DNA of 64,000 bases, taken from Escherichia phage phiP4. Positions 37,109 to 40,464 of this stretch are shown piece by piece. The DNA is taken from sequence record PP993145.1; one strand, 5' to 3'. A model generated the notes under the pieces. The model did not search any database. It was not told where the DNA came from and saw only the letters and a list, made by a program, of their open reading frames with translations. Position numbers and translations under genes: made by a program. The first letter of the stretch is position 1; the number at the start of each line of letters is the position of its first letter.

Positions 37109-37321
37109 ATGAGAGTTCACAAGGTAGATAAAGAACGTATCTATTTTATTATGGATTCTGGGGCGTATGGTTCCATTCTCCGTGGGGATATAACTAAATT
37201 ATGTTTAGTAAATACTTGGATGAACGAAGGGAAGATTGATCCTAGGGTGGGATTGTGCTTATCCGAACCCGCCCTTTCTATTGCTAATGCAGAAATTGAA
37301 ATGTTTGAGGAACAAGAATGA
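37109..37321 (+). CDS. hypothetical protein
   Basis: 70-aa ORF with RBS. Confidence 0.4.
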   Translation: MRVHKVDKERIYFIMDSGAYGSILRGDITKLCLVNTWMNEGKIDPRVGLCLSEPALSIANAEIEMFEEQE

Positions 37322-37521: not shown

Positions 37522-37711
37522 GGGTTTAAACGACGCTTTGGAAAACGCATTAATGCAGCAGTGGGAAACTGGCTATAAGGATGGTGTTGAATCCTGTGCT
37601 ACTATGCTAGAAGTTATTGCTAATACCTTAATGGAGAAAGGCAATAAAGAATTAGCTGAGCTATTAGACAGTATTGGGCAAAACTTCAGAGAACAGGTGA
37701 AAAATGCGTAG
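37490..37711 (+). CDS. hypothetical protein
   Basis: 73-aa ORF. Confidence 0.4.
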   Translation: MAFSKLMLPDKGLNDALENALMQQWETGYKDGVESCATMLEVIANTLMEKGNKELAELLDSIGQNFREQVKNA

Positions 37712-38519
37712 ATTAATTATTATTAGTGGTGCAGGTTTGAGTGTTGAAAGTGGTGTACGAGCTTTTCGTACTGATACTGCTAGTGGTAAAGCATTGTGGG
37801 ATGATTATGATCTAGAAGAGGTATGTAATATTCATGCCTTTCGTGGTAATTTTTATCATAAAACCCATATGTTTTACAACAAGCGTCGTGAAGAGCTAAA
37901 AACTGTTGAACCCAATCTTGCGCATTTGCGTATTGGTGAATGGTATAAACAATATCCAGGCCAAGTAGTAAACTTGACTACCAACGTTGATGACCTTATT
38001 GAGCGTGCTGGCGTTCCACATAGTGACATTCTGCACATTCACGGATATTTAAAAGAGGTTGTTGTAGCTGATAGCTACAATAGTAGCAATAAACGGATTA
38101 TTGATGTAGGGTACAATTCTATTGATCCAGACGATTATAAATGGGTTAAACCTAATGTAATCTTTTTTGGGGAGCATGCTCCAGCGTACGCAGAAATGTA
38201 CAATGTTTTTGATGGTATTACCAGTCAAGATATGATCGTTGTGGTTGGTTGCTCTAACCAAGTAATTAACTTCTACTGGGAATTATTTCCTGTTCTTAAT
38301 TTGACTGCTGCCAAGCTAATGGTTGTTAACTACTATGATAGTGCCCTAGCGGCGGAACCGAGCTATCAAGGTATGACTCGTAGTGAGATGTACCAGCTGG
38401 AAGAACGCGGTATCCCTTACTGGAGTAAAGGTGCGGTAGATGCTTTCAGTGATCCTGATTTTATTGCTCGTGTAGAAGCTCATTTAGAGGGTAGACCTTA
38501 TGTGTCAGGAAATAAGTAA
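37704..38519 (+). CDS. Sir2-family (sirtuin-like) NAD-dependent protein
   Basis: 271 aa; N-terminal GAGLSVESGVRAFR matches the sirtuin NAD-binding signature; HIHGYL catalytic-His context. Confidence 0.6.
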   Translation: MRRLIIISGAGLSVESGVRAFRTDTASGKALWDDYDLEEVCNIHAFRGNFYHKTHMFYNKRREELKTVEPNLAHLRIGEWYKQYPGQVVNLTTNVDDLIERAGVPHSDILHIHGYLKEVVVADSYNSSNKRIIDVGYNSIDPDDYKWVKPNVIFFGEHAPAYAEMYNVFDGITSQDMIVVVGCSNQVINFYWELFPVLNLTAAKLMVVNYYDSALAAEPSYQGMTRSEMYQLEERGIPYWSKGAVDAFSDPDFIARVEAHLEGRPYVSGNK

Positions 38520-39012
38520 TACTCCAATTATTTTTCTAGACATTGATGGGGTGCTCAATTCGAGCATCTCCCAATATCATGCGCCTGATGATGAAAAGAT
38601 TTTCTTTGGAAGTGATTGGGTTTTCAAACCGCTTCTCAAGGCTTTTCAGGACTTTATTCGTCCTTCTCCAATAATGATTGTTGGAGTATCATCTTGGTTC
38701 TCTGTCAGAAATGAGATGGAGAACGTTCAGATTATGACCGGATTAGGTCTTATCGATCGTTTTCTTGGTACAACGGATTTTACTGGGGGTGGATTATCTA
38801 GGGGTAATTCTGTTCTTCGCTTCGTTGAAAAGCATAAGCTCAAACATTGGTGTGTGCTTGATGATGCGGGTGCTATGATGTATCAGTATCCAACGGTTAT
38901 AGTCAACGGTAGGACTGGAATAAATCTTCAAGATTTAAGAGCTGTTAGCTATATGTTAGAATTTAGTCCGGATCTTGAAATGTGTAAATCCTTACAACAA
39001 TTTAAGGTGTAA
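38500..39012 (+). CDS. HAD-superfamily phosphatase-like protein
   Basis: 170 aa; N-terminal FLDIDGVLN resembles HAD motif I. Confidence 0.4.
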   Translation: MCQEISNTPIIFLDIDGVLNSSISQYHAPDDEKIFFGSDWVFKPLLKAFQDFIRPSPIMIVGVSSWFSVRNEMENVQIMTGLGLIDRFLGTTDFTGGGLSRGNSVLRFVEKHKLKHWCVLDDAGAMMYQYPTVIVNGRTGINLQDLRAVSYMLEFSPDLEMCKSLQQFKV

Positions 39013-39014
39013 AT

Positions 39015-39443
39015 ATGTTCAACAATGTATTCTCTAAAGAAGCTAACCCAATTTTGGTTAACTTTTGGCGTACTCTCCCAGCTAGCCTGTATAATGAGAC
39101 TATTAACTCTTTGAAAATATGGTGTGAGAATAACGAAATCTCCTTTGCTTTTAAAGATGATATTGATGAGGCTCCCTGTATTGGTTTAATTGTTCAGGTA
39201 GAGGAGGGTCTTGAAGAGATTGTCGGCTGGAAAGAGTTAGATGAAATGGGCTTAGTTTTTGCATTAAACTATAAGCTGTTTATGCCTGCTAAGCATCGCC
39301 TCGTTGTTAACTATAAAACTAGTGAATCTCCTGGTTTTCAGGTTAATGAACGTTATGGTTGGTCTTACTCACCGGAAGAAGTAAATGAGGGGATTCAGAA
39401 ACTTCGACGTTTCGGGTATATGATCCCAGGTTTAACTGCTTAA
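39015..39443 (+). CDS. hypothetical protein (paralog 1 of tandem pair)
   Basis: 142 aa; shares W..L.EMGL.FALN..LF.P and C-terminal G(Y/I)..PGL with the next ORF. Confidence 0.5.
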   Translation: MFNNVFSKEANPILVNFWRTLPASLYNETINSLKIWCENNEISFAFKDDIDEAPCIGLIVQVEEGLEEIVGWKELDEMGLVFALNYKLFMPAKHRLVVNYKTSESPGFQVNERYGWSYSPEEVNEGIQKLRRFGYMIPGLTA

Positions 39444-39452
39444 GGAGGCAGA

Positions 39453-39845
39453 ATGGAACAAGTATATTGGCGTCAGATTGATCCTAGTTTGGTGAAACGT
39501 GCGGAGAAGCTGCTACAACGTTGGTTGGGGGTAAGACAAGCCTCCTTCACTTTTCCGGAGCAGCAAATAGATGATCCCTGTGTTGGTGTTTTCCTATCCG
39601 GCTACGCGGGGGGATGGGAGTTGGATTGGAATGAATTGTCTGCTATGGGCTTGATTGTTGCCCTAAACTTCTCTTTGTTCCATCCACGTGGTTTGGCCAT
39701 ATGTCGTGTGCCGGATGATGGTTGTTCGCCATATCTTTTACAGGTGGAAGATGATATTTGGGAGTACACTCCAGATATTCTCGCAGAAGCTAAAGAACAA
39801 TTAAATCGTGTTGGGATTTATGTTCCGGGCCTAAATGATGAATGA
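39453..39845 (+). CDS. hypothetical protein (paralog 2 of tandem pair)
   Basis: 130 aa; same conserved blocks as 39015..39443. Confidence 0.5.
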   Translation: MEQVYWRQIDPSLVKRAEKLLQRWLGVRQASFTFPEQQIDDPCVGVFLSGYAGGWELDWNELSAMGLIVALNFSLFHPRGLAICRVPDDGCSPYLLQVEDDIWEYTPDILAEAKEQLNRVGIYVPGLNDE

Positions 39846-39875
39846 TTTTTATTAGCTCAACTCTGATTACCGAGT

Positions 39876-39906
39876 CATTTTGGCTCGGTTTTATCCGTAC
39901 TCAAGA
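39876..39906 (+). terminator. rho-independent terminator
   Basis: Hairpin accgag-tcattttgg-ctcggt followed by TTTTAT. Confidence 0.5.
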
Positions 39907-39929
39907 CCAATGATAGCACCATCCGGAAA

Positions 39930-39972
39930 ATTTTACTTGCAGGATGCCCAAAATCTTGATATAATATTTATA
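39930..39972 (+). promoter_or_regulatory. early promoter
   Basis: TTGCAG (39937-39942), 17-bp spacer, TATAAT (39960-39965). Confidence 0.5.
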
Positions 39973-39974
39973 TT

Positions 39975-40464
39975 GAATTGAGAGACATTAGTAAAAATTG
40001 ATTTTGCTAATTTTTCTTGTTTACAATCCGCGATACGGAACAGTTAGGCTGCCCCATTAAGGGTTGTTTTAACTGTTACGTGTTAGTTTTTAAACAAATA
40101 GTTAATAGAATACTTAGCGATCTACATCCCGTAGGAACCCTGGTAAGGCCTCGAAGCAACCTAGTGTGAGGTGGTTGTGAAGTGAGACGGGAGGAGTGAA
40201 AAACTCCGAGAAGTGATGACGTAAGGTATACTGCATCTAGTATGAGCTAGTACATGAAGCATTAGGTGAGCAAATCTGGCTTAGCGGCCATCCTCAAGGA
40301 TTTGTGCGGTATAGTGAAGCGGCAGTGTAGCGTGAAAGTGGAAGTTGCCACCCCACTTCAGTATTTGCAATTAATTTGTTGAGAAATTGACAGTAACAGT
40401 TGTTCTATTCTTTCTGAATAGTCCTAAAGAAAACTTATTTCATTTCCAACACAGGAGTATTGTT
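39975..40464 (+). other. long ORF-free leader with repeated GTGAAG-like motifs (candidate origin/iteron array or structured 5' UTR)
   Basis: About 490 nt without an ORF of 60 aa or more on either strand; purine-rich, GC-richer than surroundings; repeated (A)GTGAAG / GTGAAA units. Confidence 0.4.

What the first reader, a model, noticed from the sequence alone, without database searches (positions are those of the whole stretch)
39015..39845. Tandem paralogous genes
The two adjacent ORFs (142 and 130 aa) share conserved blocks in the same order (W..L, EMGL.FALN..LF.P, C-terminal PGL), indicating tandem duplication and divergence. This is typical of anti-defence or host-interaction genes under diversifying selection.
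Basis: seen in the sequence. Interest (0 to 1): 0.4.

Follow-up and report, generated by a model that had tools for sequence, protein, structure and literature searches.

The report
Ancient tandem DUF7415 gene pair
Two neighbouring small genes of a T5-like phage are real, ancient duplicates of each other, belong to a widespread phage protein family of unknown function (DUF7415), and evolve under purifying rather than diversifying selection.

Summary
ORF A (39015-39443, 142 aa) and ORF B (39453-39845, 130 aa) are paralogues: 31% identity over 124 aa, E=8e-20, shuffle z=27. The window is a Tequintavirus, and A and B are the orthologues of T5.106 and T5.107, both annotated hypothetical.

Both proteins belong to Pfam DUF7415 and phrog_2502. 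Pfam's 53-position model matches each half of each protein separately. The AF2 models (pLDDT 88 and 92) show the same helix plus beta-hairpin unit twice, followed by a C-terminal helix. No solved structure resembles the fold.

The duplication is old. A-type and B-type genes lie in tandem after Sir2 in T5-like phages, in phage Eos and in Sugarlandvirus, and the A|B split has 99% NJ bootstrap support. Serratia phage Slocum has one copy and Pantoea phage AAS21 has none.

Divergence was asymmetric. B keeps the canonical domain of the single-domain relatives (51-79 bits); A has lost much of it (8-34 bits).

dN/dS is 0.08 for A and 0.12 for B, similar to the neighbouring genes, and no 15-codon window exceeds 0.51. 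The "diversifying selection / anti-defence" reading is therefore not supported.

Function is unknown. My best inference is small acidic protein-binding adaptors of the early DNA and nucleotide metabolism programme. This is an ordinary, modestly interesting finding.

The parts
39015..39443 (+). Gene A, the orthologue of T5.106: a 142-aa acidic (pI 4.75) two-repeat DUF7415 protein of the 'A type', whose C-terminal repeat has diverged from the canonical domain.
   Evidence: ORF. Pfam DUF7415 at 121.5 bits and phrog_2502. T5.106 synteny. AF2 model with pLDDT 87.8 and pTM 0.82. The C-repeat scores only 25.6 bits against the single-domain HMM. pI.
39057..39209 (+). A, N-terminal DUF7415-like repeat (residues 15-65): helix 23-36 followed by beta strands.
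   Evidence: The Pfam model matches the isolated N-half at E=1.6e-19. Secondary structure is from the AF2 model.
39219..39350 (+). A, C-terminal DUF7415 repeat (residues 69-112), with the motif W.EL..MGL..ALN..LF.P. This is the most constrained stretch (pN/pS 0.02-0.06).
39444..39448 (+). Shine-Dalgarno GGAGG of gene B, directly after the TAA stop of A. A and B are in the same reading frame, 9 nt apart.
   Evidence: Sequence, translation. Lindwurm annotates an RBS here.
39453..39845 (+). Gene B, the orthologue of T5.107: a 130-aa acidic (pI 4.40) two-repeat DUF7415 protein of the 'B type', whose C-terminal repeat keeps the canonical domain signature (HP.GLA..R...G.S...D..WEY).
   Evidence: ORF. 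Pfam at 109.4 bits and phrog_2502. T5.107 synteny. AF2 model with pLDDT 91.6. The C-repeat scores 68.4 bits against the single-domain HMM.
39459..39605 (+). B, N-terminal DUF7415-like repeat (residues 3-51). It ends in an indel-rich loop (about residues 48-58), which is the most variable part of the pair.
39621..39746 (+). B, C-terminal canonical DUF7415 repeat (residues 57-98).
39870..39894 (+). Rho-independent terminator that closes the operon (ACCGAG...CTCGGT followed by TTTTAT).
   Evidence: Sequence. The homologous position is annotated as a terminator in Lindwurm and in T5.
37704..38519 (+). Co-operonic Sir2-family protein (T5.102 orthologue). It is the conserved upstream neighbour of the DUF7415 gene or genes in Demerecviridae.
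   Evidence: Pfam SIR2 at E=1.2e-24. NCBIfam matches are below the cut-offs. Synteny.
38500..39012 (+). Co-operonic HAD_SAK_2 phosphatase-like protein (T5.105 orthologue), whose stop lies 2 nt before the start of A. It is present only in the Tequintavirus/Epseptimavirus type of locus.
   Evidence: Pfam HAD_SAK_2 at E=1.2e-19. It is absent in Sugarlandvirus, Eos and Slocum.

Best explanation
A and B are an ancient, tandemly duplicated pair of small acidic proteins of the phage family DUF7415. They are the orthologues of T5.106 and T5.107, and they are the last two genes of an early operon (small ORFs, Sir2, HAD, A, B, terminator). That operon lies between the anaerobic ribonucleotide reductase gene and the replication-origin helicase gene.

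What is shown:
- Each protein consists of two helix plus beta-hairpin units followed by a C-terminal helix and a PGL tail. This is a fold with no solved relative. Pfam treats the two units as two copies of the roughly 50-residue DUF7415 domain, which elsewhere occurs as a stand-alone 60-100 aa phage protein.
- The gene duplication predates the split of T5-like phages, Eos and Sugarlandvirus.
- B kept the canonical domain signature. A lost about half of it, yet A is now the more constrained of the two.
- Both genes are under purifying selection.

What is inferred:
- The two-repeat protein is a covalent pseudo-dimer of a domain that normally homodimerises.
- A and B have non-redundant roles and probably act together as a hetero-complex.
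- The family is a non-enzymatic, acidic protein-binding (adaptor or regulator) module. It docks onto a conserved partner of the early DNA-replication and nucleotide-metabolism programme. It is not a fast-evolving anti-defence factor.
For: - Paralogy.
- Identity of the locus: about 97% identical to Escherichia phage Lindwurm and syntenic with T5.102-T5.108.
- Family: Pfam DUF7415 and phrog_2502. The Pfam model hits each half on its own at E=1e-14 to 1e-19.
- Age of the duplication: A-type plus B-type tandem genes follow Sir2 in Sugarlandvirus and Eos. Orthologues are 35-37% identical, against 21-29% for paralogues within a genome, and the A|B bipartition has 99% bootstrap support.
- Asymmetry: against an HMM of single-domain proteins, B-type C-repeats score 51-79 bits, single-copy types 52-64 bits and A-types 8-34 bits.
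- Selection: dN/dS is 0.077 for A and 0.118 for B, and the highest window is 0.51.
- Adaptor reading:
  - All members are acidic, pI 4.0-5.2.
  - The domain is fused at either end to unrelated partners: dATP/dGTP pyrophosphohydrolase x2, DUF3850/ASCH x2, thymidylate kinase, Cox, DUF551, PGDYG and a ClpX zinc finger.
  - Stand-alone copies sit between nrdD and nrdG in Jiaodavirus.
  - Others sit next to the gpA replication nickase in P2-like prophages.
  - In Slopekvirus they lie among dNMP kinase and NUDIX genes.
Against: - No experiment or publication bears on the function.
- The internal duplication rests on Pfam's model and on the repeated secondary structure. Direct comparison of the halves is not significant: SW p about 0.3 and hhalign P=0.045. 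The single-domain HMM does not detect the N-terminal repeats.
- The genomic contexts of single-domain relatives are heterogeneous. One follows RNA ligase 1, one lies in the phiCTX late operon, and one lies in the same stretch of small genes as Acb1.
- The slot after Sir2 is variable in Demerecviridae, and AAS21 has unrelated genes there. This fits an accessory gene better than a core metabolic one.
- Several invariant polar residues (N, H, S, D, Y) could mark a ligand or catalytic site rather than a docking surface.
Confidence: 0.5

Rival explanations
1. The pair is an anti-defence or host-takeover inhibitor. On this view the small acidic early proteins bind and block a host protein, for example a defence effector or a DNA-binding host factor, and the two paralogues cover two targets or two variants of one target.
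For: - They are small, acidic and phage-restricted, and they lie in an early operon.
- The slot between Sir2 and the origin helicase varies among Demerecviridae: HAD+A+B, A+B, a single gene, or unrelated genes.
- Single-domain relatives behave like mobile accessory genes. One is inserted in the phiCTX late operon, one lies in the same stretch of small genes as Acb1 in Slopekvirus, and others lie among small early ORFs of P2-like prophages.
- B carries an indel-rich surface loop.
Against: - dN/dS is 0.08-0.12 with no window above 0.51.
- Both genes are kept in about 520 records.
- The single-domain core is 43-67% identical between proteins from unrelated phage families. This points to a very conserved target rather than an arms race.
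- No similarity to any named protein was found. No anti-defence library was available to search.
Confidence: 0.25
2. The DUF7415 domain is a small ligand-binding or catalytic unit of deoxynucleotide metabolism, for example an accessory factor of the anaerobic ribonucleotide reductase or a nucleotide sensor. On this view B carries one functional site and A is a degenerate, pseudo-enzyme-like partner.
For: - A stand-alone copy overlaps both nrdD and nrdG in Jiaodavirus.
- The T5-like operon starts right after nrdD.
- The domain is fused to thymidylate kinase and to dATP/dGTP pyrophosphohydrolase.
- Polar residues N, H, S, D and Y are invariant or nearly invariant in the domain. B retains them and A has lost most of them.
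Against: - Serratia phage Slocum has no nrdD in the locus but keeps the DUF7415 gene.
- Most contexts and fusion partners are unrelated to nucleotide metabolism: Cox, ASCH, DUF551, a ClpX zinc finger, gpA, and the phiCTX late operon.
- A domain of about 50 residues with no known fold relatives offers no recognisable active site.
Confidence: 0.15
3. The pair is a partner of the neighbouring Sir2 and HAD_SAK_2 proteins in an NAD-dependent or RNA-repair-type module, for example as a substrate adaptor or regulator of the phage Sir2.
For: - Sir2 is the conserved upstream neighbour in T5-like phages, Eos, Sugarlandvirus and Slocum.
- The HAD gene belongs to the 'Swiss Army Knife RNA repair' HAD family.
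- The same Sir2 type sits next to RNA ligase 1 and Pnk in Vequintavirus.
- A single-domain DUF7415 gene follows RNA ligase 1 in Aeromonas phage avDM12.
- The domain is fused to ASCH/DUF3850.
Against: - Sir2 occurs without DUF7415 in Vequintavirus and in Pantoea phage AAS21.
- Of the stand-alone DUF7415 loci inspected, none has a Sir2 gene nearby.
- HAD is missing in three of the four Demerecviridae locus types that carry DUF7415.
Confidence: 0.1

Closest known systems
T5.106 and T5.107 of Escherichia phage T5 (NC_005859, YP_006934 and YP_006935), hypothetical proteins
   Same: They are direct orthologues. The order is the same (Sir2 ... HAD, A, B, terminator, origin-binding helicase), the lengths are the same (142 and 130 aa), and the proteins are about 92-94% identical.
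   Different: The window lacks the two small ORFs T5.103 and T5.104 that separate Sir2 and HAD in T5. No function is known for the T5 genes either.
Stand-alone single-domain DUF7415 proteins (PF24187), e.g. Klebsiella phage KP179 gp172, Aeromonas phage avDM12 gp84 and Pseudomonas phage phiCTX orf7
   Same: They share the roughly 50-residue core DWNELS..GL..RIN.EILHP.GLA..RD..TG.S.GALV..DG.WEY. B's C-terminal repeat keeps nearly all of it. They superpose on the model at 1.2-1.3 A.
   Different: They have one domain instead of two and lack the N-terminal degenerate repeat. They occur as a single gene rather than a pair, and in other phage families (Straboviridae, P2-like) and other contexts: between nrdD and nrdG, beside gpA, or in a late operon.
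Single-copy two-repeat DUF7415 proteins of other Demerecviridae (Serratia phage Slocum gp143; cluster representatives P0049-P0051 and P0055, whose copy number per genome was not checked)
   Same: They have the same two-repeat architecture. Slocum gp143 occupies the same place after Sir2. Two of them (P0049 and P0050) are about equally distant from A and from B, at 33-39% identity.
   Different: Slocum has one gene instead of two, and these proteins' C-repeats are canonical (52-64 bits). They look like the state before the duplication, or like a lineage that lost one copy.
Small acidic phage early proteins that bind host proteins (e.g. Ocr, Ugi). This is an analogy recalled from general knowledge, not a tested relationship.
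   Same: They are small, acidic and expressed early (operon).
   Different: There is no sequence or fold similarity to any solved protein. No evidence of DNA mimicry or of a host target exists.

Membership tests
Pfam DUF7415 (PF24187) | The whole-protein score against the family HMM is above the gathering cut-off of 27 bits. | tested here: met
   A scores 121.5 bits and B scores 109.4 bits. Each half alone scores 55-70 bits.
PHROG phrog_2502 (unknown function) | A full-length match to the family profile. | tested here: met
   A: E=1.6e-62 over profile positions 2-134 of 134. B: E=1.5e-60 over positions 4-134 of 134.
T5.106 / T5.107 orthologue pair of Tequintavirus | High identity and conserved gene order between Sir2/HAD and the origin-binding helicase. 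| tested here: met
   Both genes were found in all 30 related loci examined.
Genes under diversifying (positive) selection | dN/dS near or above 1, gene-wide or in a region. | tested here: not met
   Median dN/dS is 0.077 for A and 0.118 for B. The highest 15-codon window is pN/pS 0.51. Site-wise likelihood tests were not run.
Known anti-defence proteins | Homology to a characterised anti-defence family, or an experimentally shown inhibition of a defence system. | not testable with these tools
   No anti-defence library was available. Pfam, NCBIfam, PHROG and PADLOC give no such hit, none of the homologues carries a functional name, and no literature was found.
Exonuclease (ACLAME 70), tail tube protein, and MazG-like (names attached to orthologues or relatives in some GenBank records) | A match to a nuclease, tail-tube or MazG/NTP-pyrophosphohydrolase family. 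| tested here: not met
   The only Pfam hit is DUF7415. NCBIfam gives none and no solved structure matches. The MazG-like label probably comes from fusion proteins that carry PF04447 beside DUF7415.
Internally duplicated (two-repeat) proteins | Significant similarity between the two halves of one protein. | tested here: inconclusive
   Pfam's model matches both halves, and both halves have the helix plus hairpin order. However, SW of N-half against C-half gives p about 0.3, hhalign gives P=0.045, and the single-domain HMM misses the N-repeats.

The most novel reading that the evidence does not exclude
DUF7415 is a new protein fold that forms a widespread, mobile phage docking module aimed at one highly conserved host or replisome protein of Gammaproteobacteria. 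T5-like phages have turned it, by domain duplication followed by gene duplication, into an obligate A/B heteromer. B supplies the canonical binding surface and A supplies a new one. Together they would form a previously unrecognised host-takeover or anti-defence device encoded next to the phage Sir2.
Probability: 0.2. Interest if true: 0.6.

Novelty: new member of a known kind. Interest (0 to 1): 0.3.

Why it matters
These are conserved early genes of the classical model phage T5 that nobody has characterised. The analysis turns 'two hypothetical proteins' into a defined case:
- It is a nested duplication: a domain became a two-repeat protein, which became a gene pair.
- The partners diverged asymmetrically.
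- The fold has no solved relative.
- The family reaches into T4-like, P2-like and jumbo phages and into prophages.

If the pair proves to be a heteromeric adaptor or inhibitor, it would assign a role to a family with at least 165 clusters at 50% identity. It would also explain part of the T5 early programme next to the phage Sir2. As it stands, the result mainly corrects an over-interpretation, since there is no diversifying selection, and exposes several propagated mis-annotations.

Tried and rejected
- The afdb50 fold library was not available.
- IMG/VR scans with P0059 and P0049 found nothing, and a divergent B-type alignment had no stretch conserved enough to search with. GenBank phages were used instead.
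- Literature searches for DUF7415, T5.105-107, protein accessions, and T5 plus Sir2 gave nothing relevant.
- Direct tests of the internal repeat were not significant: blastp/SW of the halves and hhalign.
- A first NJ bootstrap gave 31%. It was invalid because distances above the Kimura limit became NaN. After capping the distances, support is 99%. An earlier attempt timed out.
- Chance similarity, and a recent redundant duplicate, were both considered and rejected.
- An obligate Sir2 partnership was rejected, because Sir2 occurs without DUF7415.
- An obligate nrdD partnership was rejected, because Slocum lacks nrdD in the locus.
- Rfam and repeat scans of the flanking non-coding DNA found nothing.

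Full report
**1. What is there**

The region holds two adjacent + strand ORFs: A (39015-39443, 142 aa) and B (39453-39845, 130 aa).
- A's TAA stop is followed directly by GGAGG, and B's ATG lies 9 nt after the stop. The two ORFs are in the same frame.
- Upstream, tightly packed or overlapping, are a Sir2-family gene (37704-38519) and a HAD_SAK_2 gene (38500-39012).
- Downstream are a terminator hairpin (39870-39894), about 540 nt of non-coding DNA, and the large origin-binding helicase gene.
- The window is a T5-like phage. The 1.9 kb around the finding is 97.3% identical to Escherichia phage Lindwurm and matches 525 phage records.
- In phage T5 the two genes are T5.106 and T5.107, both annotated 'hypothetical protein'.

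**2. Is the similarity real?**

Yes.
- BLASTP of A against B gives 31% identity over 124 aa with a single gap, E=8e-20.
- The Smith-Waterman score is 27 standard deviations above that of shuffled sequences.
- Both proteins belong to Pfam DUF7415 and to phrog_2502.

**3. Anatomy of each protein**

Evidence for two repeats:
- Pfam's DUF7415 model has only 53 positions, and it matches the N-half and the C-half of each protein independently (E from 1.6e-19 to 9.8e-15).
- AF2 models are confident: A has pLDDT 87.8 and pTM 0.82, and B has pLDDT 91.6 and pTM 0.85.
- Both models have the same order of elements: helix, three strands, two short helices, two strands, then a C-terminal helix and the PGL tail. 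Each protein is thus two helix plus hairpin units.

I treat the internal duplication as plausible but unproven:
- Direct comparison of the halves is not significant (hhalign P=0.045).
- An HMM built only from single-domain relatives sees the C-terminal repeat but not the N-terminal one.

The fold has no solved relative:
- A profile search of PDB sequences finds nothing.
- In BFVD only other DUF7415 proteins match. These include a B-type orthologue at TM 0.84/0.91 and single-domain proteins that superpose on 59-65 alignment columns at 1.2-1.3 A.

**4. The wider family**

An exhaustive profile search found 165 cluster representatives at E<=1e-3.
- About twenty are two-repeat proteins of 130-160 aa.
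- Most of the rest are 60-110 aa proteins with a single copy of the C-terminal unit. Its consensus is DWNELS..GL..RIN.EILHP.GLA..RD..TG.S.GALV..DG.WEY.
- A few very long multi-hit proteins are probably artefacts. The one I read, P0053, is 13 exact copies of a 53-aa unit.
- None of the 300-plus further homologues carries a functional name.

The single domain is fused, at either end, to unrelated partners:
- dATP/dGTP pyrophosphohydrolase (2)
- DUF3850/ASCH (2)
- thymidylate kinase
- phage Cox
- DUF551
- PGDYG
- a ClpX-type zinc finger

Stand-alone copies occupy varied positions:
- between nrdD and nrdG, overlapping both, in Jiaodavirus
- after RNA ligase 1 in an Aeromonas Chrysonvirus
- next to the gpA replication nickase, Dam methylases and DUF3850 in P2-like prophages of Aeromonas and Erwinia
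- among dNMP kinase, Acb1, NUDIX and GmrSD_N genes in Slopekvirus
- between capsid gene L and gene X in phiCTX

All members examined are acidic, with pI 4.0-5.2 for the two-repeat proteins and a median of 4.8 for single-domain ones.

**5. History of the pair**

- Sugarlandvirus has Sir2, then an A-type gene, then a B-type gene, with no HAD.
- Phage Eos has the same arrangement, with overlapping A and B.
- Serratia phage Slocum has Sir2 followed by one two-repeat gene, and no nrdD in the locus.
- Pantoea phage AAS21 has unrelated small genes in that slot.
- Orthologues across these lineages are 35-37% identical, whereas paralogues within a genome are 21-29% identical.
- An NJ tree separates A-types from B-types, with 99% bootstrap support once the distances were computed correctly. 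The 31% figure came from invalid distances.

The duplication therefore predates the divergence of these Demerecviridae lineages. Two of the other two-repeat types, P0049 and P0050 (the Slocum-like form), are about equidistant from A and B.

**6. Asymmetric divergence**

I scored the C-terminal repeats against an HMM of single-domain proteins:
- B-type repeats give 51-79 bits.
- Single-copy types give 52-64 bits.
- A-types give only 8-34 bits (window A 25.6, Sugarlandvirus A 8.9, Eos A 17.2).

In A, the HP.GLA and G.S signatures are replaced by MPAKHR and S.S. Yet within T5-like phages A is the more constrained gene, so it is re-specialised rather than decaying.

**7. Selection**

From 31 T5-like loci I computed pairwise Nei-Gojobori dN/dS:

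| Gene | Median dN/dS |
|---|---|
| A | 0.077 |
| B | 0.118 |
| Sir2 | 0.100 |
| HAD | 0.087 |
| Origin-binding helicase | 0.056 |

- Sliding windows of 15 codons never exceed pN/pS 0.51.
- The W.EL..MGL..ALN helix is nearly frozen, at 0.02-0.06.
- The loosest parts are the N-repeat hairpin region, especially an indel-rich loop in B, and in B also the stretch just after the WEY motif (about residues 106-125).

This refutes gene-wide or regional diversifying selection at this resolution.

**8. Function**

Nothing is known experimentally. Four observations guide the inference:
- the proteins are acidic;
- the domain is very small;
- it is fused promiscuously at either terminus to enzymes and to DNA-binding modules;
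- the single-domain core is 43-67% identical between proteins from unrelated phage families.

Together these suggest a protein-docking module aimed at a conserved partner. It is often encoded in early replication or nucleotide-metabolism operons. The long-term retention of both A and B, their translational coupling, and A's loss of the canonical surface suggest that they work together, probably as a hetero-complex. All of this is inference, and I give the functional part about 0.3.

Three rivals remain open:
- An anti-defence or host-takeover inhibitor. The variable slot, the mobile behaviour and a position in the same stretch of small genes as Acb1 favour it; the selection data and the strong cross-family conservation argue against it.
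- A ligand-binding or enzymatic accessory of dNTP metabolism. The nrdD/nrdG position, the Tmk and pyrophosphohydrolase fusions and the invariant polar residues favour it; Slocum and the many unrelated contexts argue against it.
- A partner of the Sir2/HAD module. Conserved adjacency favours it; Sir2 without DUF7415 in Vequintavirus and AAS21, and stand-alone DUF7415 loci with no Sir2 gene nearby, argue against it.

**9. Comparison and novelty**

The genes are members of an already catalogued but uncharacterised family (Pfam DUF7415, phrog_2502), and they are orthologues of T5.106 and T5.107. This analysis adds the following, none of which turned up in the literature searches:
- the nested duplication
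- its age
- the asymmetry between the partners
- the selection regime
- the family's distribution and fusion partners

The finding is real and tidy but not surprising. Its interpretation as fast-evolving anti-defence genes is not supported.

Noticed in passing
window 38500-39012: The HAD_SAK_2 phosphatase-like gene (T5.105 orthologue) is named 'Sir2 (NAD-dependent deacetylase)' in T5 RefSeq and in phrog_18062, but it matches only the HAD_SAK_2 family. This looks like a propagated mis-annotation from its neighbour.
   Followed up: partly
window 39015-39845 and its orthologues in GenBank: Orthologues of A and B carry the names 'exonuclease (ACLAME 70)', 'putative exonuclease' and 'tail tube protein' in several records. 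A single-domain relative is called 'MazG-like'. No family search supports any of these names.
   Followed up: yes
window 38500-38519; L002:2244-2602: In this window Sir2 overlaps the HAD gene directly. T5 and L007 have two extra small ORFs (T5.103, T5.104) between them. There is also a difference of about 167 nt from Lindwurm between the end of nrdD (37009) and ORF 37109-37321, which shortens the T5.100-like ORF.
   Followed up: no
L004:4522-5381; L035:4001-4787; L036:3905-4399; L046:3752-4498: The slot between Sir2 and the origin-binding helicase is variable in Demerecviridae: HAD+A+B (T5-like), A+B (Sugarlandvirus, Eos), one two-repeat gene (Serratia phage Slocum), or unrelated small genes (Pantoea phage AAS21).
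   Followed up: yes
window 37704-38519; L047:1199-4490: The T5-type Sir2 also occurs in Vequintavirus (ECP32) directly after RNA ligase 1 and near polynucleotide kinase. It is 56-57% identical to the window's Sir2. That is more than the 52% shared with the Sir2 of several other T5-like Salmonella and Escherichia phages (e.g. S133, DaisyDussoix), which suggests exchange of Sir2 alleles between phage families.
   Followed up: partly
L003:3995-4213: Klebsiella phage KP179 gp172, a 72-aa stand-alone DUF7415 protein, is encoded between nrdD and nrdG and overlaps both. The same arrangement recurs in many Jiaodavirus genomes.
   Followed up: partly
L006:2636-2833: Pseudomonas phage phiCTX orf7 is a stand-alone DUF7415 gene inserted between capsid-completion gene L and gene X of the late operon. 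This is an unusual, moron-like position for this family.
   Followed up: partly
protein P0053 (metagenome cluster representative): This 718-aa 'protein' is made of 13 exact copies of a 53-aa unit that resembles the C-terminal helix region of the family. It is most likely an assembly artefact. Several other very long multi-hit proteins in the same search were not examined.
   Followed up: no
window 39846-40464: This is a long non-coding stretch before the origin-binding helicase gene. It contains the operon terminator (39870-39894), a promoter-like site (39998-40027) and a 12-nt inverted repeat (40035-40046 / 40070-40081). There is no Rfam match. The helicase ORF can start at TTG 40387, but Lindwurm annotates the start equivalent to 40465.
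   Followed up: partly
proteins P0040, P0044, P0047: Partial copies of gene A are deposited under Enterococcus faecalis and Salmonella enterica assemblies on contigs of 560-854 nt. These probably reflect T5-like phage DNA in those sequencing samples rather than bacterial genes.
   Followed up: no
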